Shown here piece after piece: positions 222 to 8,657 of a stretch of 21,789 nt of DNA (positions are counted from its first letter, which is position 1; the number at the start of each line of letters is the position of its first letter). The DNA lies in the UHGV virus genome UHGV-1607642; one strand, 5' to 3'. The notes beneath the pieces were generated by a model. That model was not told where the DNA came from, made no database searches, and saw only the letters and a program-made list of their open reading frames with translations. Origin of the DNA: a virus. The translations under genes were made by a program, and so were the position numbers.

Positions 222-749
222 TTAAAACGGTAAAATCCGTTCGACCCAATCGAACATGGCGACTGTCTTCCTACCGTCCCCCATGTTGAGTGTGACCTGA
301 CAAGCGTCAACGCCTGAAGACACCCCCTCAATTTCACGGCCATCCGCCATGTAGACCCTTATAGACTTCTGCATCTCATGGGCCTGGCGACAAATTTTGA
401 AGAAATCACGGCGAGATGGCCGATTGTCCACATAGTCTGGGTGTATCGTTGTCCGACCCGTGAAGTCGTGTGCAATGCCTTCTGTCACACCTGATTCAAT
501 CGTGCTGATTCGCTCAAGTGGGAGCCTTATACGATTATCTTTGTCGAACGGGGCAGGGCAAAGGTCGACCTTGTTGCGTGACGACATGAGACCCTGAACA
601 TACATGCAGAACACCTGACCATCTTCCATCGTGACCCTTACAGGAATAAGAGACTTGCGCCAGAACATCAGCGCTTTCTCCACGTTGGTGTAATCGCGCG
701 GCCAGACTTCTGCAGGAATCCCGTAGGTGATGTCAGTAATATTCGTCAT
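222..749 (-). CDS. Hypothetical protein with a triplicated h-x-h-x-M-x-D-G motif (about 175 aa)
   Basis: Long ORF in the six-frame track (222..791). Start placed at ATG 749 (MTNITD...), 5 nt from the lipoprotein stop, rather than ATG 791; neither has a clear SD, so the start is uncertain. No recognisable catalytic motif. Confidence 0.45.
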   Translation of the reverse strand: MTNITDITYGIPAEVWPRDYTNVEKALMFWRKSLIPVRVTMEDGQVFCMYVQGLMSSRNKVDLCPAPFDKDNRIRLPLERISTIESGVTEGIAHDFTGRTTIHPDYVDNRPSRRDFFKICRQAHEMQKSIRVYMADGREIEGVSSGVDACQVTLNMGDGRKTVAMFDWVERILPF

Positions 750-753
750 ATCG

Positions 754-1176
754 TCACAGTGTCGTTGGTAAGATATCGATGTCACCAGCATTACTGGTGA
801 ACACCCGGAAGACTTTCGTCTCGCCAGCTTTGGTAATCGTCTCGCGTTCCTGACGAGCAGGATTCAGTGCGCACAGCCCAGCGTCTTCGAGTGAGGCGCC
901 AACAATCCATTCTCCGGCATCCAGATGAAAAGTGACTTTTTCACCTGTTTCCAGTTTTGCAACGGTTTCGCCATTGATGAAGATCGATGCGTCGCAACCG
1001 GCGCCCACCATGCTTTTATCTCTCATAACCACCAGCGTCGATGCCGCCGGAGATTGGTATTTGAATATTCTGGTCTGCGGTGCTGGCTTTGCCTCAGAGA
1101 CAGGAATAGGACGAGATTGACATGCAGTGATAAGTAACGCGGAGGCAGCAACCAGAGGAAGTAATACGTGTTTCAT
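754..1176 (-). CDS. Putative lipoprotein (signal peptide plus lipobox), function unknown
   Basis: Start chosen at MKHVLLPLVAASALLITAC: short positive n-region, hydrophobic h-region and lipobox I-T-A-C. The track's longer N-terminal extension (to 1212) is probably not translated. Confidence 0.6.
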   Translation of the reverse strand: MKHVLLPLVAASALLITACQSRPIPVSEAKPAPQTRIFKYQSPAASTLVVMRDKSMVGAGCDASIFINGETVAKLETGEKVTFHLDAGEWIVGASLEDAGLCALNPARQERETITKAGETKVFRVFTSNAGDIDILPTTL

Positions 1177-1516: not shown

Positions 1517-3076
1517 TTACTCTCTATCCAAAACAGTGAAATCGAATGTGCTGCCAACCGGCAAGACCCCCTCGGCAAACCCAGGCGTCGTGTCGATAAT
1601 GTGTTTCCGCTCATATGAATGCGACATGAGGTATTTGTTGCTCACGTCGATGAAGTCGGTAATAAAGCACACGTTAGCCTGATTTTTCTTGGCTCGTAAG
1701 CCACGACCGACACGCTGTCTCATTTCAACTTCTGCTTTCCCGCCACCACCCAGAATCACCGCGCCTACGCTTGGAACGTCGACACCAACATCCAGAATGG
1801 TTGAACCAATGAGAACATCTATCTTGCCTGCCGCCAGACTATTAAGTTTTGCTTGTCGGGTAGTCTGGTTTGATTCTCCGTAGATGAAATCGACCTTGAG
1901 GCCACTCTCTTTCATCATTTCCATCAAGATCTGACCATGACGCTTCAGACGAACCAATGTCATACAGTTCAGACCGTGACTCTTGTACATTAGCGCTTCA
2001 CGCACAATAGCTTCGTTGCGGCCCAGATTATAGACGATGCCTAACTGATAGGCTTTCTGGTAAGCCGTGCTCATTCCAACCCGAAAATTCAGGTGTTTTG
2101 AAGCAAGTTCGGCTCTAATCCGCGCCTCATCTGGAGTGTACGCGATTTTATGATATAAAAAGTATGGTTTCGCTAAAATACCTCTGTCGATCAAATATTT
2201 CTCCGTTACTTTTATCTCGATGCGACCCGCAACGGCCATGAGACGCATATTTGCTTCAGTCGAGTCCTTCATGAACGGCGTAGCTGTCAGCGCCAGACGG
2301 TAGTCGGCATTGATGCACAACCGGGCGATGTCGTAGAAGTTAGAACCAGATGATTCGTGTGCCTCTTCCAGAATCAGCAGAGAAACGCTGGACAGGAAGC
2401 GTTTAACCAGTTCCCGGCGCTTCAGGTGGTACTGTTTTTTCTCCGGTGATGCGTCGCGCGGTGGCTCTTCGAGAAAACTGGCCAGGGTCTGCACCGTGGC
2501 AACGTTGATATGGCGCGAGACCTGGAACTCACCCGATCCAATCACCCCAACTCTCTGACCTTTCAGCCACGGCTCGCCATTCTCCGCGCGGTAGTCGATG
2601 GATTTCTGGAAGTTCTCTGCCATCTGGAACATCAGAACCGATCGCGTGGTTAAAAACAGCGTCATACGACCAATGCGAGCAGCAGCCTTACACGCTACGT
2701 TCGATTTACCGCCACCCGTCGCAATCTGGGCAATCATCATCCCTTCGCGCACCAGTGTTTCCACTGTCTGATCCTGATACGCATAGTCCGGGTTATACGG
2801 GAATGGGTTAACTACCGGGTTCGGCTTGCCCAGCGCGGGAGCTTTTTCCTTGCGCACATGCACGCATTTGATGCCAGCTTTCAGAAGGTTGGCTGCAACT
2901 GGCTTCGCAAACCCAGCCGGGAACGCGTTTTTGCTCCAGTTGAACATCGTGCTGGTTCCTTTCCAGTCCCCAGCCTCCACTTCATAGCTCAACATCTCCT
3001 GAACGAGCCGCTTCACGTTGTCATCAGCGCTAGAAATCAGCGCATTGACTGCATTCGATACAATCCGAACTGTCAT
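1517..3076 (-). CDS. SF2 DExH-box helicase family protein (519 aa)
   Basis: Motif I ATGGGKS (Walker A), motif II LILEEAHESSG (DExH), motif III LTATP, motif VI QRVGRGLR, all read directly from the translation. SD AGGAAAGAGG upstream of ATG 3076. Confidence 0.85.
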   Translation of the reverse strand: MTVRIVSNAVNALISSADDNVKRLVQEMLSYEVEAGDWKGTSTMFNWSKNAFPAGFAKPVAANLLKAGIKCVHVRKEKAPALGKPNPVVNPFPYNPDYAYQDQTVETLVREGMMIAQIATGGGKSNVACKAAARIGRMTLFLTTRSVLMFQMAENFQKSIDYRAENGEPWLKGQRVGVIGSGEFQVSRHINVATVQTLASFLEEPPRDASPEKKQYHLKRRELVKRFLSSVSLLILEEAHESSGSNFYDIARLCINADYRLALTATPFMKDSTEANMRLMAVAGRIEIKVTEKYLIDRGILAKPYFLYHKIAYTPDEARIRAELASKHLNFRVGMSTAYQKAYQLGIVYNLGRNEAIVREALMYKSHGLNCMTLVRLKRHGQILMEMMKESGLKVDFIYGESNQTTRQAKLNSLAAGKIDVLIGSTILDVGVDVPSVGAVILGGGGKAEVEMRQRVGRGLRAKKNQANVCFITDFIDVSNKYLMSHSYERKHIIDTTPGFAEGVLPVGSTFDFTVLDRE

Positions 3077-3122
3077 AAACCTCTTTCCTTCGTGCCTTTT
3101 GTATGGTAATTGGCTATTATGG

Positions 3123-3140
3123 TAAGTAAGTACTTATACA
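3123..3140. repeat. Degenerate copy of the TAAGTA-N6-TACTTA element (contains perfect 10-bp palindrome TAAGTACTTA, 3127-3136)
   Basis: TAAGTAAGTACTTATACA sits in the 64-bp divergent intergenic region and abuts ATG 3141. Confidence 0.5.
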
Positions 3141-3839
3141 ATGGATTGTATCAGAATTATGGGTGTGAAAATTACGATTCTGCAGGTGGAAGTCGCGAAC
3201 CTGCGTCCGAATCCCTGGAATACCAACTCCGTTGGGGCGCAAAACTTCGAAAAACTGAAAGGCTCTATCGAAAAATTGGGCTTTTTTAAGCCAATTCTGG
3301 CGCGGGAGTTGGACGGGGGCATTTTTGAGATCCTCGGTGGTGAACACCGCTGGCGTGCCGCGATGGAGCAGGGCATTTCAACGGTTCCCGTCATCTCCGT
3401 GGGCAAAATTAACGATCTGGTGGCCAAACAGATTTCCCTCGTCGACAACGAGCGCTACGGCGAAGACGATCAGGTCGCTTTGCAGCGCTTAATCGAAGAA
3501 ATCCAGTCTGAAATCGACTACCGGTTGTCCGATATCGCCCCGTATGACGACGAAATGGCGGCAACACTCGCCAAAGCGTCCGTTACCGATCTTGAAGCGC
3601 TGGAAGCGCTCTCCCGTGGCGATGACGAGCCGGTCGATGAGGACAAACGCGAGAAAACCGAGCGAGTCGGCGCTGAACACCAGACGATGCGCTTCAAGGT
3701 GACGTTTGATGCGTCAGATCGCGTCGCCGACACCATCAAAACCATCATCAAAGAGCAGGGAATCAATACCGGTAACGAAATGGAGAACGCCGGGGAAGCC
3801 CTGGTGTGGCTGGTCGACTACTACAAGGAGCGTATGTAA
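3141..3839 (+). CDS. ParB/Srx-like N-terminal domain protein 1 (232 aa)
   Basis: ParB-type motif FEILGGEHRWRAAMEQG followed by an acidic C-terminal half. No clear SD; start could also be ATG 3159. Confidence 0.7.
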   Translation: MDCIRIMGVKITILQVEVANLRPNPWNTNSVGAQNFEKLKGSIEKLGFFKPILARELDGGIFEILGGEHRWRAAMEQGISTVPVISVGKINDLVAKQISLVDNERYGEDDQVALQRLIEEIQSEIDYRLSDIAPYDDEMAATLAKASVTDLEALEALSRGDDEPVDEDKREKTERVGAEHQTMRFKVTFDASDRVADTIKTIIKEQGINTGNEMENAGEALVWLVDYYKERM

Positions 3840-4507
3840 TGACCAAAAACTTTGAAATCGTCTATCGAAACCCGGCAGAACTCATCCCGTATGAGATGAA
3901 CGCCAAAAAACATGACGAACAGCAGATCCGCGATCTGGCGGCCGCCATCAAAAAGCGCGGTTTTGACCAGCCGATCACGGTCGACAAGCACGACGTCATC
4001 ATTACTGGCCACGGTCGTCGCGAGGCGGCTCTTCTGGCTGGTCTGGAGCGTGTGCCGGTCATTGTTCGCGACGATCTGAGCGAAGAAGAAGTGAAGGCTA
4101 AGCGTCTGGAAGACAACCGCCTGGCCAGTATTGACTACGACGCCATCAAATTGCAGCAGGAACTGGAATCCCTGGTGCTGGGCGATGTCGAGGTCTTCGG
4201 TTTTGAAGAGCGCGAGCTGAACGTGCTTGTCGGCAGCATGACCGAAGAGATGGAAACCGGCTCTCTGGTGCTCGATCTGGGCGAAGAGACGGAGCGCCAG
4301 AAGGAAGAGCACACCGAGATCAGTCGCGAAGTGGCCTCTGAAGAAGTCCGCGTCATCGACGTATTGGGCTTTAAAACGCTCCCTGCTGGCTCTGCCATTG
4401 TGGTTGGGGATTTGCTTGCCCACATGGAAGAAATCACGGGAGAGAGCGGGGTAGACGCTTTCGTGGCGTATGCGGAGAAAGTTTCTTCTGGGGAGCTGGC
4501 CGCATGA
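3839..4507 (+). CDS. ParB/Srx-like N-terminal domain protein 2 (222 aa)
   Basis: ParB-type motif VIITGHGRREAALLAG with acidic C-terminal half. ATG overlaps the upstream TAA by 1 nt (ATGTAATGA); the track ORF begins further upstream at a non-ATG codon. Confidence 0.7.
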   Translation: MTKNFEIVYRNPAELIPYEMNAKKHDEQQIRDLAAAIKKRGFDQPITVDKHDVIITGHGRREAALLAGLERVPVIVRDDLSEEEVKAKRLEDNRLASIDYDAIKLQQELESLVLGDVEVFGFEERELNVLVGSMTEEMETGSLVLDLGEETERQKEEHTEISREVASEEVRVIDVLGFKTLPAGSAIVVGDLLAHMEEITGESGVDAFVAYAEKVSSGELAA

Positions 4508-5142
4508 GCAAATACACCATCAACGTATCGTTTCAGACCCGCGTGAACAAAACCACGCGCACGCTGGAGATTGCCGAATCGTTCGGTCTTGGCCTGGACG
4601 AAAAAGAGTGGACGCTTTACGACAATCTGGAGCTGGAAGTGAAGCAGGGCGATGTGGTGTACATCACCGGCCAATCCGGTTCCGGTAAATCCGTTGTGCT
4701 GCGCGAGCTGCAACGCCAGATGAAGGATGAAGGGCTTTCTGTAGCCTCCATCGATGACTTTGCCTTCGACAATGAGGTTAACGTCATTGACCAGCTGGGC
4801 AAAACCACCAGCGAAGCGCTGGGGCTGCTGTCTATGGCCGGATTGAATGACGCCTATCTCTTTGTGCGTAAGCCATCCGAGATGTCTGACGGCCAGAAAT
4901 ACCGTCTCAAGATCGCCAAGCTGATCGAGTCCGGCGCGAAAGTCTGGGCTGCCGACGAATTTGGCGCTGTTCTCGACCGTGTAACCGCCCAGGTTGTGGC
5001 GTCGAACCTCCAGCGTGCCGCCCGTAAGGTTGGTGCGACGGTAATGGTGGCGACGACCCACGAAGACCTGAAGAACGCGCTGCGCCCGGATATGCAGATC
5101 ACCAAGCACTACAAAGAACGCGTGAAGGTGGAATATGCCTGA
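4504..5142 (+). CDS. Minimal ABC-type ATPase (212 aa, nucleotide-binding domain only)
   Basis: Walker A GQSGSGKS, signature-like SDGQKYR, Walker B VWAADEF, D-loop GAVLD, H-loop ATTHED. Start overlaps the upstream stop (ATGA); SD GGGAG upstream. No transmembrane partner gene. Confidence 0.75.
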   Translation: MSKYTINVSFQTRVNKTTRTLEIAESFGLGLDEKEWTLYDNLELEVKQGDVVYITGQSGSGKSVVLRELQRQMKDEGLSVASIDDFAFDNEVNVIDQLGKTTSEALGLLSMAGLNDAYLFVRKPSEMSDGQKYRLKIAKLIESGAKVWAADEFGAVLDRVTAQVVASNLQRAARKVGATVMVATTHEDLKNALRPDMQITKHYKERVKVEYA

Positions 5143-5389
5143 TTTGAAGATCGTAGAGCTGAAGCCATCGAAAGAGGCTGACAACAACAACGTTGAAGTC
5201 ATCCGCCTGCTGGAAGAAGCACTCCAGTACGCCAGAGAAGGCAAAAGCCAGAGCCTGGCACTGCTGATGATCAACAACGACGGCAGTGTGCTGGATTGCT
5301 GGCATAACGGTGGGCGTCCATACGTCATGGTTGGGGCGATGGAATCGCTTCGCCTGGACTTCATCAATGCCAATATCGAGCGTAGGTGA
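5135..5389 (+). CDS. Small hypothetical protein (84 aa)
   Basis: ORF overlaps the ATPase stop by 8 nt; SD AAGGTGG upstream. No recognisable motif. Confidence 0.5.
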   Translation: MPDLKIVELKPSKEADNNNVEVIRLLEEALQYAREGKSQSLALLMINNDGSVLDCWHNGGRPYVMVGAMESLRLDFINANIERR

Positions 5390-5394
5390 TCGAC

Positions 5395-6285
5395 ATGACA
5401 GGCATCATCATCAAACGCTACCGCCCGGAAGAGTTCCCGCGTCATCTGGACTTTCTGGAGCGTATGACCGTTACCAAAGGCACGGTTGAAGACTGGCACG
5501 CGCTGAAGTCGCTGCACTACAAGACGGATGGTAAGCCGTTCGCGCCAACGTATTATCGCTGCGAACTGGACGACCGGCTGGTGGGCGTCGTGGTTATGGC
5601 TTACCCGAAACTGCTGCTGGCGCCTCGCCATCGCATGTTTCCTAAGCTGAAGCCAACCACCAATACCACCGTGGCCAACCAGTATTGGGGCCGGTACGTG
5701 AACAACAACTTTGCCGTGATCAGCCGTTCCGTTGTTGACACTCAGTACCGCGGTGTCGGCGTCTCCTATCGAATGATTAACCTGGTTAGCAGGATGCACG
5801 ACCGGCCAATCATCGAGATCCAGTCGTCGATGAGCAAATACAACCCGTTCGCCATGAAAGCAGGGTTCCAGTTCATCCGTCAGGAGCGTCCGAAGAGCTA
5901 TGAGAGTGCGTTGCGCGTCTTCCAGCGTCATTTCCGTTCCGACCCTGGCGACAACGAAGCGATCGTCAAAGAGCTGTTTGCCATGAGTGAGTCTCGCCGT
6001 CGTCGTGCGCTGCGTGATCTGGTCGCTGACTACCACAAGAACAGTTCCCTGGCCAAAGCCGGGCGTAATCGTGGCACGACGATTCAGGACATTGCCGACA
6101 GCCTGGTGGACGAGGCCAGCATCGTGAAGCTGCTCAAGGACATTCACAACCTGAGCTTCACGTCTCCGCTGTATGGCGTGTACCGAAACCCGGACTTTGG
6201 TCGTCAGCTGCCGGACACGCTGCCACTGCTGGCATTCGACAAACAGCCTTTGAATAAACCTCTTGAAATTGCATTACCGGCATAA
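5395..6285 (+). CDS. Hypothetical protein with a GNAT-like acetyltransferase motif (about 296 aa)
   Basis: Start at ATG 5395 with SD AGGTGA 6 nt upstream. Segment AVISRSVVDTQYRGVGVSYRMINL fits the GNAT motif A (R/Q-x-x-G-x-G/A), read by eye; the ~130-aa C-terminal extension is unassigned. Confidence 0.5.
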   Translation: MTGIIIKRYRPEEFPRHLDFLERMTVTKGTVEDWHALKSLHYKTDGKPFAPTYYRCELDDRLVGVVVMAYPKLLLAPRHRMFPKLKPTTNTTVANQYWGRYVNNNFAVISRSVVDTQYRGVGVSYRMINLVSRMHDRPIIEIQSSMSKYNPFAMKAGFQFIRQERPKSYESALRVFQRHFRSDPGDNEAIVKELFAMSESRRRRALRDLVADYHKNSSLAKAGRNRGTTIQDIADSLVDEASIVKLLKDIHNLSFTSPLYGVYRNPDFGRQLPDTLPLLAFDKQPLNKPLEIALPA

Positions 6286-6294
6286 GGATTTGCC

Positions 6295-6561
6295 ATGACG
6301 TTGACCGACAAACAAAAAGACATCATCAAAACCATCAATTTAGGCCATGAGCGTGGGCATCTGCTCGATCTGGACGAGCTGCTTGAAGTGCTGCCGTACA
6401 AAACGACCAAACAGAGTATGCAGTTCTCTATCCGCGCACTGGTGAAAAAGGGGCTGGTGGAGAAAGGAATGTGCCGCCAGCGCGGTGATTCCGGCTACCA
6501 CCGTCGCACGCTGGGACTGACCACGTTAGGTCGTGCCAGAGCCAAATTACTGGTGATGTAA
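6295..6561 (+). CDS. Small winged-helix-like DNA-binding protein (88 aa)
   Basis: ORF with SD AAGGA. Size and basic C-terminal half suggest an HTH/wH regulator; the fold assignment is an inference. Confidence 0.45.
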   Translation: MTLTDKQKDIIKTINLGHERGHLLDLDELLEVLPYKTTKQSMQFSIRALVKKGLVEKGMCRQRGDSGYHRRTLGLTTLGRARAKLLVM

Positions 6562-6586
6562 GTCGGTCTGGGAGCCAGTTTGAGAG

Positions 6587-6641
6587 CCTGCTTCCGTATA
6601 TATAAATACTAAGTGACTTATTAAATATATACGGAAGCAGG
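6587..6641. promoter_or_regulatory. Large perfect inverted repeat (17-bp arms, 21-nt spacer) with a nested TAAGTgACTTA palindrome
   Basis: CCTGCTTCCGTATATAT ... ATATATACGGAAGCAGG. The spacer contains TAAGTGACTTA (6610-6620). No flanking T-tract, so it is not a typical intrinsic terminator. Confidence 0.6.
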
Positions 6642-6756
6642 TTCTGAATACTCCCCAGCCCGGTTTTAAACACCCAGAAAACAAATTGGTTAGGCACTGA
6701 ATTAAACAAGTTGTTTAGGAGCGCAAGGATGCGCTCTGAGTGTTTTAGAGGGATCT

Positions 6757-7398
6757 ATGACTGTAGAAAAAGACGAGAGCAAAACTCGCCTGACACCAGC
6801 TGAGTGGGCAGAAGCCGAAGCGAAGTGGACTTCCGGCGAATACACACTCTCCAGGCTGGAGGAAGAGTACGGCATTCGTCGTGAAACGCTCTCCAGACAT
6901 TTCAAAAAGCGTGGATTAGAGAAAGGCGCGGACTCCGTTGGGAAGATGGTGCGCGAGTCGCTCAAATCCGACGCAGAGCTGCGTGCGAAGGCGCGTGCAG
7001 AGAAAATCGAAGAGCGCCGGACTCGTTACGACGATTGGGCGTTCGCACTCGGTCGTATGGTGATGCATGAGGTGGCCACAGCCAAGAAGGACGGCAGGCC
7101 ACTGGCAGCCATCGAAGATGACCTGAAGAGTCTCCAGCGTGCCAGCGGCACACTCGCTAAGTGCTTCGAAATATCGTCGAAAGCGCTCGGTATGGATCGC
7201 GTGGAGAACGAGGACGACGAAATCCCGAACCTGGTATTTGGCGAACTTACGCCTTCCCAGGTGGCGCAGCTGCGTAAGGAAGATGATGAGCCGGATCTGA
7301 TTGATGACGATCTGCTTGAGTCACTCGAAGAGGAAGCACTGAGCGAAGCTGAGGGCGATTCTGAAGCGTCTGGTGATGAAAGTGATGGGAGCGTCTGA
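6757..7398 (+). CDS. Terminase small subunit (213 aa)
   Basis: Sits immediately upstream of the large terminase. N-terminal HTH-like segment YTLSRLEEEYGIRRETLSRHF and strongly acidic C-terminus. SD AGAGGGA upstream. Confidence 0.7.
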   Translation: MTVEKDESKTRLTPAEWAEAEAKWTSGEYTLSRLEEEYGIRRETLSRHFKKRGLEKGADSVGKMVRESLKSDAELRAKARAEKIEERRTRYDDWAFALGRMVMHEVATAKKDGRPLAAIEDDLKSLQRASGTLAKCFEISSKALGMDRVENEDDEIPNLVFGELTPSQVAQLRKEDDEPDLIDDDLLESLEEEALSEAEGDSEASGDESDGSV

Positions 7399-7400
7399 CT

Positions 7401-8657
7401 ATGGCCATCCCGTCGTCTCTGAGTCTCGTACAGCTGCATTCTGGGCAGATGCAAGTCTTCCAGTCGCCACATCGTTTCAAAGTGGTGTGTGCGGGTCGAC
7501 GCTGGGGTAAATCCCGGTTGTCGATCTCCACCATCATCCGCGCGGCAGCCAAAGAGAAGAAGCAACGTGTCTGGTATGTCGCACCGACTTACCAGATGGC
7601 TCGCCAGATCTTGTGGGATGACCTGCAGGAAGTTCTGCCGCGCAAATGGGTTCGTAAGAAAAACGACACCACGATGACCATCGTGCTGAAGAACGGCTCT
7701 GAAATCGCGCTGAAAGGTGCGGATAAGCCCGATACGCTTCGTGGTGTGGCACTGCACTTTGTGGTGCTCGATGAATTTCAGGATATGAAGCCTGACACCT
7801 GGTACAAGGTACTGCGTCCGACACTGTCCTCCACCCGTGGCGGTGCGCTGATCATCGGTACGCCAAAAGGCTTCTCCGAGTTCCACAAGCTGTGGACTAT
7901 CGGTCAGAACAAAGATTTGCAACGCAAGGGGCAGTGGAAGAGCTGGCAGTTCGTTACGGCCGATTCTCCGTTCGTACCGAGCGCGGAAATCGAAGCAGCG
8001 AAGAACGATATGGACCCTAAATCGTTCGCACAGGAATACCTGGCCAGCTTCGAAAACATGTCCGGACGCGTTTACTACCCGTTCGACCGCAATGTGCATG
8101 TGAAGCCACTCCAGTTCAATCCGAAACTGCCGATCTGGGTTGGTCAGGACTTCAACATCGACCCTATGTCATCGGTCATCCTGCAACCGCAGCCAAATGG
8201 TGAACTGTGGGCTGTGGACGAATTGGTGTTGTTCTCTTCTAACACGGCTGAAGTGTGTGACGAGCTGGAGCGTCGATACTGGCGCTGGAAATCTCAGGTC
8301 ACTATCTTTCCTGACCCGGCAGGTGCGTATCGCCAGCACGCACGCGGCGAATCTGACGTCGACATCTTCAAAGAGAAAGGTTTCCTTCGAGTCGACTATC
8401 CGAAGAAACACCCACCGATCGCAGACCGTGTGAACGCCGTGAACCGCATGTTAATGAGCGCCTCGGGCGAAACACGGTTGTACGTCGATCCGAAGTGCAA
8501 ACACTTAATCGACTCACTGGGGAAGGTGATCTACAAGCCAGGCTCACGCGATATGGATAAGACAGGCGGCGTCGAGCACAGTGCGGATGCGTTGGGGTAT
8601 CCGGTTCATCGTAGGTATCCAGTGAAAAATCGTGTTATTCTTGGTGGATCCAGATAA
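7401..8657 (+). CDS. Terminase large subunit (418 aa)
   Basis: Walker A VVCAGRRWGKS and Walker B HFVVLDEF in the N-terminal ATPase; C-terminal nuclease-like acidic motifs (WVGQDFN, IFPDPAG, HSADALG). SD GGGAG upstream. Confidence 0.9.
   Translation: MAIPSSLSLVQLHSGQMQVFQSPHRFKVVCAGRRWGKSRLSISTIIRAAAKEKKQRVWYVAPTYQMARQILWDDLQEVLPRKWVRKKNDTTMTIVLKNGSEIALKGADKPDTLRGVALHFVVLDEFQDMKPDTWYKVLRPTLSSTRGGALIIGTPKGFSEFHKLWTIGQNKDLQRKGQWKSWQFVTADSPFVPSAEIEAAKNDMDPKSFAQEYLASFENMSGRVYYPFDRNVHVKPLQFNPKLPIWVGQDFNIDPMSSVILQPQPNGELWAVDELVLFSSNTAEVCDELERRYWRWKSQVTIFPDPAGAYRQHARGESDVDIFKEKGFLRVDYPKKHPPIADRVNAVNRMLMSASGETRLYVDPKCKHLIDSLGKVIYKPGSRDMDKTGGVEHSADALGYPVHRRYPVKNRVILGGSR

What the first reader, a model, noticed from the sequence alone, without database searches (positions are those of the whole stretch)
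3141..4507. Tandem ParB/Srx-like paralogues with acidic C-terminal tails
Two adjacent proteins each carry the ParB N-terminal signature (GGEHRWRAA in the first, TGHGRREAA in the second) followed by a Glu/Asp-rich C-terminal half, with no fused methyltransferase or HTH domain. ParB-fold domains are known as CTP-dependent DNA clamps and as nickases; a tandem pair next to an ATPase suggests a heteromeric DNA-handling complex. The acidic tails could be DNA mimics or protein-interaction regions.
Basis: partly seen in the sequence, partly recalled or inferred. Interest (0 to 1): 0.6.

Follow-up and report, generated by a model that had tools for sequence, protein, structure and literature searches.

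The report
Paired ParB proteins of phage DNA-modification module
Two adjacent ParB-like genes in an SSU5-type phage-plasmid are real, separate and conserved. They are not plasmid-partition proteins: they head an operon that also encodes an ATPase plus acyltransferase, sits next to the DNA-packaging genes, and belongs to a kind of phage system already predicted, but never tested, to modify phage DNA chemically.

Summary
Window 3141-3839 and 3839-4507 encode two ParB-fold proteins carrying the quoted motifs, each with an acidic second half. They are old paralogues, not a split gene.

The "tails" are structured: a helix pair, a disordered acidic linker and a small folded C-terminal domain. This is the domain layout reported for ParB proteins that activate phage thymine dioxygenases.

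The window is 98.6% identical to Salmonella phage SSU5. The pair opens a translationally coupled operon: ParB1, ParB2, ABC ATPase, an 84-aa protein and a GNAT acyltransferase. It lies directly upstream of the small and large terminase genes.

This order is kept in every relative examined, including ~110 kb phages not described as plasmids. SSU5 has a separate ParA locus about 30 kb away.

The ATPase and acyltransferase are a split form of fused ABC-GNAT proteins. Some relatives add a ParB-like domain or a DNA polymerase. At least 42 of 80 viral loci place the fusion right after the large terminase gene.

Iyer et al. (2013) already predicted that ABC-GNAT acylates a DNA base, and that ParB-terminase loci modify DNA at packaging.

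Most likely the pair is the nucleotide-gated DNA-targeting or activating part of that untested system. It is a new member of a known kind, of moderate interest.

The parts
3141..3839 (+). ParB1, 232 aa. ParB-CTPase-fold domain (about residues 10-106), helix pair 111-158, disordered acidic linker 160-177, C-terminal strand-helix-helix domain 181-232.
   Evidence: Pfam ParB_N 51.1 bits. phrog_723 E 1.4e-85. AF2 model pLDDT 82, with above 90 in the N-domain and 84-96 in the C-domain. Foldseek best hits are Noc, ParB-CTPgammaS, PadC and KorB. Pocket residues N27, N29, S42, G47, G66-G67, H69, R70, D102, N103 and R105 are invariant in the family.
3839..4507 (+). ParB2, 222 aa. A paralogue with the same architecture. 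Its ParB domain is closest to the ParB domains fused to phage DNA methyltransferases.
   Evidence: Pfam ParB_N 35.5 bits. phrog_930 E 4e-115 and phrog_498 (ParB-methyltransferase fusions) E 7.7e-33. PADLOC MTase_II N-terminal part E 6.5e-18. hhalign to the ParB1 family 99% over 213 columns. Shine-Dalgarno AAGGAG at 3827-3832 and TAATG overlap.
4504..5142 (+). Soluble ABC-type ATPase, 212 aa. Intact Walker A, Q-loop, LSDGQ signature, Walker B D-E and H-loop. Start overlaps the ParB2 stop (ATGA).
   Evidence: Pfam ABC_tran E 4.9e-13. Invariant catalytic motifs across relatives. Its profile matches the ABC part of fused ABC-GNAT proteins at E 1e-79 to 1e-50 over the full length.
5135..5389 (+). 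84-aa protein of unknown function (phrog_796). This is a variable slot: absent in phage Cyrano and replaced by other small genes in relatives.
5386..6285 (+). GNAT-fold acyltransferase, 299 aa, basic (pI 9.8). No Pfam family. Conserved acyl-CoA loop R122-G123-x-G125.
6295..6561 (+). 88-aa basic protein (phrog_900, pI 10.1), conserved in this position in all relatives. Only a non-significant resemblance to a LexA-type winged helix.
6580..6648 (.). 24-nt inverted repeat with a 21-nt AT-rich spacer, between the operon and the small-terminase-like gene. The deposited linear ends of SSU5 and Cyrano fall at 6623/6624. Candidate packaging site or terminator; its link to the ParB proteins is untested.
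   Evidence: Coordinates derived.
6757..7398 (+). Small-terminase-like DNA-binding protein (phrog_867), acidic.
7401..8657 (+). Terminase large subunit.
   Evidence: Pfam Terminase_6N E 2e-9. Annotated as such in SSU5.
1517..3076 (-). DEAD/DEAH-box SF2 helicase, transcribed divergently from ParB1. It keeps this position in every relative of this phage lineage, but not beside the fused ABC-GNAT genes of other lineages. Membership in the module is uncertain.

Best explanation
ParB1 and ParB2 are two paralogous ParB-CTPase-fold proteins without an HTH domain. Each has a nucleotide-binding N-domain, a helix pair, an acidic disordered linker and a small C-terminal domain that is probably a dimerisation domain. 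They are the first two genes of a translationally coupled operon that sits directly upstream of the terminase genes.

The enzymatic core of the operon is a split ABC-ATPase plus GNAT acyltransferase. I infer that the ParB pair, as a heterodimer or as two homodimers, is the nucleotide-gated DNA-loading or activating component. It would bring or switch on the ATP-driven acyltransferase on replicated phage DNA around the time of packaging, so that the packaged genome carries an acyl modification on a base.

Shown here: the folds, the conserved nucleotide-pocket and catalytic motifs, the operon structure, strict co-conservation, domain fusions of a ParB-like domain with ABC and GNAT, and the recurrent terminase (and occasional DNA polymerase) linkage of ABC-GNAT.

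Inferred only: nucleotide binding, DNA loading, complex formation, the substrate (DNA rather than protein, RNA or a small molecule) and the chemistry.
For: 1. Both proteins are ParB fold. The most conserved positions in both families are the nucleotide-pocket motifs.

2. The five genes overlap start to stop: TAATG, ATGA, an 8-nt overlap and a 4-nt overlap.

3. The order helicase<->ParB1-ParB2-ABC-(variable)-GNAT-88aa-TerS-TerL-portal is kept in SSU5-like, Pseudomonas nickie, Rhizobium RHEph10, Stenotrophomonas BUCTxx99 and two metagenomic or genomic relatives. All four core genes are intact in 77 of 77 complete viral loci. dN/dS is 0.06-0.2.

4. The ABC ATPase and the GNAT are full-length orthologues of the two halves of fused ABC-GNAT proteins.

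5. Four representatives carry an N-terminal ParB-like domain, a zinc ribbon, ABC and GNAT in one chain. One of them sits directly upstream of terminase and portal genes in an unrelated phage.

6. Fused ABC-GNAT genes follow a Terminase_6N gene in at least 42 of 80 viral loci, often with a 4-nt overlap. PolB-ABC-GNAT fusions exist.

7. ParB2 is closest to the ParB domains of phage ParB-methyltransferase fusions.

8. The GNAT is basic (pI 9.8) and the ParBs are acidic.

9. Literature. GNAT coupled to an ABC ATPase was predicted to make an uncharacterised acyl modification of a DNA base (PMC7824862, citing Iyer et al. 2013). ParB-terminase loci were predicted to modify DNA as part of packaging (PMC4738411). 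ParB-like proteins with the same four-part architecture and no DNA-binding domain are required activators of phage thymine dioxygenases (PMC13229309). DpdB is a ParB-like ATPase needed for DpdA base exchange (PMC12839542).
Against: - No modification of SSU5-type DNA is documented in anything I could search.
- 80 viral loci with fused ABC-GNAT have no ParB1/2-type gene within 5 kb, so ParB is not obligatory for this enzyme.
- Within the SSU5-like lineage the gene linkage may be partly plain vertical inheritance.
- The nucleotide pockets deviate from CTPase ParB: the catalytic Gln is Asn, the P-motif 1 Arg is Asn or Lys, and GERR is GEHR or GHGR.
- In the one tested precedent, pocket mutations did not impair the activator function (PMC13229309).
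- No DNA-binding domain is identified. The C-terminal domain gave no significant match to ribbon-helix-helix or other families.
Confidence: 0.5

Rival explanations
1. Packaging-site factors. The ParB pair binds at or near the packaging site, perhaps the inverted repeat at 6580-6648, and builds a nucleoprotein complex that recruits or regulates terminase. The ABC-GNAT would then act on a protein of the packaging machinery or on a counter-ion rather than on DNA bases.
For: - The module lies immediately next to TerS/TerL in three unrelated phage lineages.
- The deposited SSU5 and Cyrano genome ends lie 62 bp downstream of the operon, inside an inverted repeat.
- Equivalent large inverted repeats occur in RHEph10 and in L007.
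- Canonical ParB proteins load at palindromic sites.
- Structural neighbours of the GNAT include polyamine and protein N-acetyltransferases.
Against: - No DNA-binding domain was found in either ParB.
- Nickie and BUCTxx99 show no comparable repeat.
- The shared record ends may reflect curators co-linearising genomes rather than physical ends.
- PolB-ABC-GNAT fusions and neighbourhoods with replication or methyltransferase genes point to DNA itself rather than to the packaging motor.
- A dedicated TerS-like protein already exists.
Confidence: 0.2
2. Plasmid partition proteins, as the database names say: centromere-binding ParB proteins that segregate the phage-plasmid prophage.
For: - The host element is a phage-plasmid.
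- Records name both proteins "ParB-like partition protein" or "ParB/RepB/Spo0J family".
- Noc and Spo0J are the best sequence and structure matches for the N-domain.
Against: - No HTH domain is present. Scores of 38.9 and 46.9 bits fall below the TIGR00180 cut-off of 58.45.
- No ParA gene is adjacent; the neighbouring ATPase is ABC-type.
- SSU5 has a separate ParA-like gene with a small downstream ORF about 30 kb away.
- The same pair is kept in the same place in ~105-120 kb phages not described as plasmids (nickie, RHEph10, BUCTxx99).
- I saw no N-terminal LG(K/R)GL ParA-activating motif on reading the sequences.
Confidence: 0.05
3. CTP-switch transcription regulators, like KorB: the pair clamps DNA and controls late-operon or helicase expression from the divergent 64-bp promoter region.
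For: - KorB is among the structural matches.
- The pair is transcribed divergently from a conserved helicase across a short shared intergenic region.
- DndB is a ParB-like repressor of a modification operon (PMC12839542, PMC12704722).
Against: - No DNA-binding domain was found.
- Fusion of a ParB-like domain to ABC-GNAT in one chain argues for a role inside the enzyme complex.
- No sigma-70-like promoter or operator-like repeat was found there.
Confidence: 0.08
4. ParB-type nucleases or nickases, for cutting at the genome ends or degrading host DNA.
For: - Some ParB/Srx members nick DNA (Osa and RK2 ParB, cited in PMC12839542).
- Records call the proteins "ParB-like nuclease domain".
- Accessory nucleases often sit next to terminases.
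Against: - TerL already carries its own nuclease domain family.
- The closest structures are clamp-type CTP binders, not nucleases.
- Nothing here tests catalysis.
Confidence: 0.07
5. Anti-defence decoys: the acidic linkers mimic DNA and block host restriction or other DNA-binding defence proteins.
For: - Both families are strongly and consistently acidic (pI 4.1-5.2; linkers about 30% D/E).
- ParB-fold proteins on mobile elements have been suggested to act in anti-defence (PMC12704722).
Against: - The acidic parts are the fastest-evolving and are predicted to be disordered. The folded pocket and the C-domain are what is conserved.
- The genes lie immediately upstream of the terminase and structural genes, not in an early-gene region.
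- The PADLOC scan (a library of defence-system proteins; no anti-defence library was available) gave only ParB-methyltransferase N-terminal matches.
Confidence: 0.05

Closest known systems
ParB-terminase large subunit (ParB-Tls) loci and the GNAT + ABC-ATPase predicted DNA-base acylation system (Iyer, Zhang, Burroughs, Aravind 2013; summarised in PMC4738411 and PMC7824862)
   Same: ParB gene(s), an ABC ATPase and a GNAT sit beside the terminase large subunit in a phage. The same inferred logic applies: modification of phage DNA linked to packaging.
   Different: Here the ABC and GNAT parts are separate genes and there are two ParB paralogues in tandem. The host is a phage-plasmid lineage. I could not read the 2013 paper, so I cannot say whether this exact arrangement was already listed there. 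The system remains experimentally untested everywhere.
ParB-like activators of phage thymine dioxygenases (5mYOX-associated ParB; PMC13229309)
   Same: The domain plan matches the ParB1 model: nucleotide-binding domain, helix-helix, unstructured region and C-terminal dimerisation domain, with no DNA-binding domain. They are phage-encoded partners of a DNA-modifying enzyme and often lie near terminases.
   Different: The partner enzyme is an Fe/2-oxoglutarate dioxygenase, not ABC-GNAT. There is a single ParB rather than a paralogous pair. No TET/JBP gene is in this operon.
Phage ParB-DNA methyltransferase fusions (phrog_498; PF02195+PF01555)
   Same: The N-domain plus helical region of ParB2 matches the ParB part of these fusions at E 7.7e-33. 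They are also typical of prophages.
   Different: No methyltransferase domain is fused or adjacent here. The catalytic partner is an acyltransferase.
Canonical ParB/Noc/KorB CTP-dependent DNA clamps
   Same: The N-domain fold is the same. Conserved features are the GxxR loop, the (D/E)N motif and, in ParB1, the cytosine-contacting Ser and Gly positions (S42, G47).
   Different: There is no HTH domain, no ParA partner and no parS. The catalytic Gln is Asn, the P-motif 1 Arg is Asn (ParB1) or Lys (ParB2), and GERR is GEHR or GHGR. Scores fall below the TIGR00180 cut-off.
DpdB, the ParB-like ATPase of the Dpd 7-deazaguanine DNA modification system
   Same: It is a ParB-fold NTPase acting as an accessory factor that enables a DNA-base-modifying enzyme.
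   Different: The partner (DpdA transglycosylase), the chemistry and the host-defence context all differ. No specific sequence relationship was tested here.
Phage Mu Mom and TmcA/NAT10
   Same: These are GNAT-fold enzymes that acylate nucleic-acid bases. TmcA/NAT10 couple the GNAT to an ATPase, as ABC-GNAT does. Both appear among the structural hits.

Membership tests
ParB/Srx (ParB-CTPase fold) superfamily, PF02195 | Profile match above the curated threshold | tested here: met
   51.1 and 35.5 bits against a cut-off of 26.3.
ParB/Srx (ParB-CTPase fold) superfamily, PF02195 | Three-dimensional fold of the N-domain | tested here: met
   The ParB1 model has pLDDT above 90 over residues 10-106. 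Foldseek E 2e-8 to 1e-7 to Noc and ParB-CTPgammaS, and further hits to PadC, KorB and sulfiredoxin. ParB2 is covered only by homology (hhalign 99%).
ParB/Srx (ParB-CTPase fold) superfamily, PF02195 | GxxR phosphate loop and (D/E)N motif | tested here: met
   G67-E-H-R70 and D102-N103 in ParB1; G57-H-G-R60 and D92-N93 in ParB2. These are invariant in each family.
Canonical partition ParB (ParABS; TIGR00180) | Helix-turn-helix parS-binding domain | tested here: not met
   No HTH_ParB or other HTH hit. The model shows only a helix pair at that position.
Canonical partition ParB (ParABS; TIGR00180) | Score above the family cut-off | tested here: not met
   38.9 and 46.9 bits against a cut-off of 58.45.
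Canonical partition ParB (ParABS; TIGR00180) | Adjacent ParA ATPase and an N-terminal ParA-activating LG(K/R)GL motif | tested here: not met
   The neighbouring ATPase is ABC-type. SSU5's ParA-like gene lies at 30.5 kb. I found no such motif on reading either sequence.
Canonical partition ParB (ParABS; TIGR00180) | Full set of CTP-binding and hydrolysis residues (Q, R of P-motif 1; GERR; ENxxR; Ser/Gly C-motif) | tested here: inconclusive
   In ParB1, Q is N27, R is N29 and GERR is GEHR, while S42 and G47 are kept. In ParB2, Q is N21, R is K23, GERR is GHGR and Ser is Ala. Mapping uses the alignments and the residues named in PMC8367383. Nucleotide binding itself was not measured.
ParB-terminase locus / ABC-GNAT predicted DNA acyl-modification system | ParB gene(s) in the same gene string as the terminase large subunit | tested here: met
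   ParB1 and ParB2 at 3141-4507; TerL at 7401-8657 on the same strand. The arrangement is conserved in relatives.
ParB-terminase locus / ABC-GNAT predicted DNA acyl-modification system | ABC ATPase coupled to a GNAT-superfamily domain | tested here: met
   The split genes at 4504-5142 and 5386-6285 are orthologous over their full length to fused ABC-GNAT proteins. The GNAT fold is confirmed.
ParB-terminase locus / ABC-GNAT predicted DNA acyl-modification system | An acyl-modified base in the phage DNA | not testable with these tools
   This needs nucleoside mass spectrometry or sequencing-kinetics data.
5mYOX-associated ParB activators | Nucleotide-binding domain + helix-helix + unstructured region + C-terminal domain, with no DNA-binding domain | tested here: met
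   The ParB1 model compared with the description in PMC13229309.
5mYOX-associated ParB activators | Cognate TET/JBP-type dioxygenase encoded nearby | tested here: not met
   None of the operon genes or flanking genes scanned is a dioxygenase.
Sulfiredoxin | Catalytic Cys in the (F/S)GGCHR motif | tested here: not met
   The motifs read GGEHR and TGHGR, with no cysteine.

The most novel reading that the evidence does not exclude
The SSU5-type operon encodes a working, packaging-coupled DNA acylation machine. An asymmetric ParB1-ParB2 heterodimeric nucleotide-gated clamp would load the ATP-driven ABC-GNAT enzyme onto replicated phage DNA, producing a base modification not yet described chemically (an acyl or acetyl base other than Mom's). 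This would protect the genomes of a widespread family of enterobacterial phage-plasmids and ~110 kb phages. The same enzyme would do this, with or without ParB, next to the terminase in many other phages.
Probability: 0.25. Interest if true: 0.8.

Novelty: new member of a known kind. Interest (0 to 1): 0.45.

Why it matters
These genes are annotated across hundreds of Klebsiella, E. coli and Salmonella phage-plasmids as "partition proteins" and "ABC transporter". Both names are misleading.

If the module really acylates DNA, it would be only the second kind of acyl DNA modification after Mu Mom. It would also add to the few documented cases of a ParB-fold protein serving a DNA-modifying enzyme (after the 5mYOX activators, DpdB and the ParB-methyltransferase fusions). 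SSU5-like elements grow in standard laboratory hosts, so the 2013 computational prediction becomes directly testable.

It also bears on how clinically relevant phage-plasmids, some carrying resistance genes, might evade restriction when they move between hosts.

Tried and rejected
1. Heterodimer prediction. I built a linker-joined ParB1+ParB2 alignment (A9). MAFFT placed the single-family sequences wrongly (1308 columns), so I did not submit it. The last structure job went to ParB1 with a combined-family alignment instead.

2. Ribbon-helix-helix idea for the C-terminal domain. The topology fits (extended strand plus two helices). But a profile search of PDB sequences gave only repeat-protein noise, and Pfam gave one weak RHH_10 hit among 20 members (E 0.15). 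I therefore call it a probable dimerisation domain only.

4. Sequence-only searches for the 299-aa protein against Pfam, NCBIfam, PADLOC and PDB gave nothing.

5. A literature search for "COG2401", and several term combinations, gave nothing or irrelevant papers. Iyer et al. 2013 is not held.

6. The 88-aa gene upstream of the ParB-ABC-GNAT fusion in L016 is not similar to the window's 88-aa protein.

7. No sigma-70-like promoter lies in 2950-6800, and terminator-like hits are at background level.

8. No ParB1/2-type gene lies near the 80 fused ABC-GNAT viral loci. The idea that ParB always accompanies ABC-GNAT is rejected.

9. dS is saturated (above 1) in all usable pairs, so the dN/dS values are only rough.
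Full report
**What is there.** The window is a close relative of Salmonella phage-plasmid SSU5: 98.6% identity over 3000-6600, with further relatives in Klebsiella and E. coli at 84-86%. The finding's coordinates hold two ORFs on the + strand.

ParB1 (3141-3839, 232 aa) carries GGEHRWRAA at residues 66-74. ParB2 carries TGHGRREAA at residues 56-64. ParB2 most likely starts at ATG 3839 rather than at the mechanical GTG 3806. An AAGGAG lies 7 nt upstream of the ATG, and the ATG overlaps the ParB1 stop as TAATG.

Both proteins pass Pfam's ParB_N threshold: 51.1 and 35.5 bits against 26.3. Each matches its own phage protein family end to end: phrog_723 at E 1.4e-85 and phrog_930 at E 4e-115.

**Two genes, not one broken gene.** The proteins are 31% identical over 104 residues. 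Family profiles built from diverse relatives align over 213 columns, essentially full length, at 99% probability and E 8e-18. In a mixed search, 120 hits divided cleanly into a ParB1-type and a ParB2-type family (40 and 80, with score gaps of more than 200 bits).

Both genes are intact in all 77 SSU5-like viral contigs with enough upstream sequence. They are also intact in phages Cyrano, nickie, RHEph10 and BUCTxx99, in an Ectothiorhodospira contig and in a metagenomic contig. dN/dS is 0.06-0.2, although dS is saturated. The ParBs change two to three times faster than the neighbouring enzymes, fastest in the linker.

**Anatomy.** An AlphaFold2 model of ParB1 was built from 101 sequences of both families (mean pLDDT 82). 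It has four parts:
- a confident ParB N-domain (about 10-106, pLDDT above 90);
- two long helices (111-132 and 137-158);
- a disordered acidic stretch (160-177, pLDDT below 50);
- a confident C-terminal unit of an extended segment and two helices (181-232, pLDDT 84-96).

The best structural matches of the model are Noc, ParB bound to CTPgammaS or CDP, PadC and KorB. Sulfiredoxin and serine kinase rank lower. So the "acidic tails" are a helix pair, a flexible acidic linker and a folded C-domain.

The acidity is a family trait. Linkers are about 30% D/E and 6-7% K/R. Whole-protein pI is 4.1-5.2 in both families. The C-domain has a ribbon-helix-helix-like topology, but I could not confirm that by sequence. 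The safer reading is a dimerisation domain.

This four-part plan, without a DNA-binding domain, matches what was reported for the ParB proteins that activate phage thymine dioxygenases (PMC13229309).

**The nucleotide pocket.** I used the alignments to Thermus and Caulobacter ParB and the residues named by Jalal et al. (PMC8367383).

| Canonical ParB position | ParB1 | ParB2 |
|---|---|---|
| Cytosine-contacting Ser | S42 (kept) | Ala |
| Cytosine-contacting Gly | G47 (kept) | G41 (kept) |
| Glu/Arg of GERR | G-E68-H-R70 | G-H58-G-R60 |
| (E/D)-N of P-motif 3 | D102-N103 | D92-N93 |
| Catalytic Gln | N27 | N21 |
| P-motif 1 Arg | N29 | K23 |

These positions are the invariant ones in each family, so the pocket is under selection. 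Which nucleotide it binds cannot be read from sequence. ParB folds bind CTP, ATP or GTP, and a ParB-acetyltransferase fusion was GTP-specific (PMC12704722).

**Context.** ParB1, ParB2, an ABC-type ATPase (4504-5142), an 84-aa protein (5135-5389) and a 299-aa protein (5386-6285) overlap start to stop. An 88-aa basic protein follows, then a 195-bp gap, a small-terminase-like gene, the large terminase and the portal. A DEAD-box helicase is transcribed divergently from ParB1.

**The ATPase and GNAT are one enzyme, split.** A profile search of 1.84 billion cluster representatives found 829 relatives of the GNAT protein. Beyond the close family, many are 440-900-aa proteins with the GNAT part at the C-terminus. 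Pfam shows ABC_tran in front of it. The profile of the phage's own ABC ATPase matches that N-terminal part over its full length at E 1e-79 to 1e-50. The conserved motifs of both halves line up.

**ParB belongs to that enzyme.** Four representatives (P0439, P0452, P0421, P0510; 666-699 aa) carry four parts in one chain: an N-terminal ParB-like domain (NPN...DGEQR...NK motifs; ParB1/2 profile E 1e-12 to 1e-7), a zinc ribbon, the ABC domain and the GNAT domain. Such a fusion is strong evidence that the separate ParB proteins work physically with ABC-GNAT.

ParB is not obligatory, however. None of 80 viral loci with plain ABC-GNAT fusions has a ParB1/2-type gene within 5 kb.

**Link to terminase and to DNA.** The ParB-ABC-GNAT fusion P0439 lies directly upstream of terminase, portal and Mu-F genes of an unrelated phage, with a second, HTH-bearing ParB nearby. 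The fusion P0409 overlaps the end of a large terminase gene at the edge of a different prophage.

In 80 IMG/VR loci, at least 42 have a Terminase_6N gene immediately upstream, often with a 4-nt overlap. Thirty of the fusion genes lie within 400 bp of the contig end. Other relatives are fused to a family-B DNA polymerase (P0433; loci L054, L057, L093), sit next to one, or sit among DNA methyltransferases.

The GNAT protein is basic (pI 9.8; family 8.9-9.8), complementary to the acidic ParBs.

**What it is not.** The "partition protein" label fails its own tests:
- no HTH domain;
- scores below the TIGR00180 cut-off;
- no adjacent ParA;
- a separate ParA-like gene with a small partner ORF about 30 kb away in SSU5;
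- the same pair in the same place in ~105-120 kb phages not described as plasmids.

It is also not sulfiredoxin, because the motif lacks the cysteine.

[quoted passage not shown] They also stated that they had previously identified a GNAT coupled to an ABC ATPase, predicted to make an uncharacterised acyl modification of a DNA base (PMC7824862, citing Iyer et al. 2013).

My independent analysis arrives at the same reading, so the kind is already known as a computational prediction. I found no experimental test of it in the searched corpus. I could not read the 2013 paper, so I cannot say whether the tandem-ParB, split version in SSU5-like elements was already listed.

Experimental precedents for ParB-fold proteins serving DNA-modifying enzymes now exist: the 5mYOX activators (PMC13229309) and DpdB (via PMC12839542).

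**Most likely mechanism.** Shown: the folds, motifs, operon structure, co-conservation, fusions and terminase linkage. Inferred: ParB1 and ParB2 dimerise through their N- and C-domains in a nucleotide-dependent way, possibly as a heterodimer with two non-equivalent sites. They associate with DNA and with the basic ABC-GNAT enzyme. They thereby target or switch on ATP-dependent acyl transfer to phage DNA before or during packaging.

I put this at about 0.5 overall, and the specific claim of DNA-base acylation at about 0.3. The main rival (0.2) is a role at the packaging site itself. Partition, transcription control, nuclease and DNA-mimic roles are each below 0.1.

**Verdict.** The functional framing should shift from a "ParB pair next to an ATPase" to "ParB subunits of a terminase-linked ABC-GNAT module". 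It is a new member, perhaps a variant, of a predicted but untested kind. Interest is moderate (0.45), with a clear and cheap experimental route in a tractable host.

Noticed in passing
window 6580-6603 and 6625-6648: A 24-nt inverted repeat (92% complementary, 21-nt AT-rich spacer) lies in the gap between the 88-aa gene and the small-terminase-like gene. The deposited linear records of SSU5 and of phage Cyrano both break at window 6623/6624, inside this element. The arms (CCTGCTTCC...GGAAGCAGG) persist with drift in SSU5-like relatives. RHEph10 (L003 7118-7198) and L007 (12512-12626) have other large inverted repeats in the same gap; nickie and BUCTxx99 do not. It may be the packaging/cos site or a terminator.
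   Followed up: partly
window 222-791 (- strand): A 189-aa ORF matches Pfam Flag1_repress (FljA, repressor of phase-1 flagellin) at E 1.9e-95. A phage-plasmid-borne FljA homologue could alter host flagellin expression.
   Followed up: no
loci L054, L057, L093 and protein P0433: Single ORFs of 1260-1310 aa fuse a family-B DNA polymerase (exonuclease + polymerase domains) to the ABC-GNAT enzyme in viral contigs of 26-73 kb. This is a direct physical link between the enzyme and DNA replication.
   Followed up: partly
loci L019-L098 (IMG/VR contigs): Fused ABC-GNAT genes are very often the last gene before the contig end (30 of 80 within 400 bp), immediately after the large terminase gene. This suggests a position at the physical genome end or the prophage edge.
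   Followed up: partly
protein P0431 (847 aa): This ABC-GNAT fusion is interrupted by an intein with a LAGLIDADG homing endonuclease inside the ABC domain.
   Followed up: no
window 5135-5389, and the equivalent slot in L001-L004, L007, L008: The slot between the ABC ATPase and GNAT genes is variable. It holds an 84-aa protein here, nothing in Cyrano, and other small genes elsewhere (DUF2829/Phage_gp49_66- and RyR-domain proteins). This looks like a hotspot for small-gene insertion inside an otherwise fixed operon.
   Followed up: no
locus L016 6502-7875 (- strand): The unrelated phage carrying the ParB-ABC-GNAT fusion also encodes a second, separate ParB with an HTH_ParB domain, divergently oriented. 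So two ParB-domain proteins again accompany one ABC-GNAT next to the terminase.
   Followed up: no
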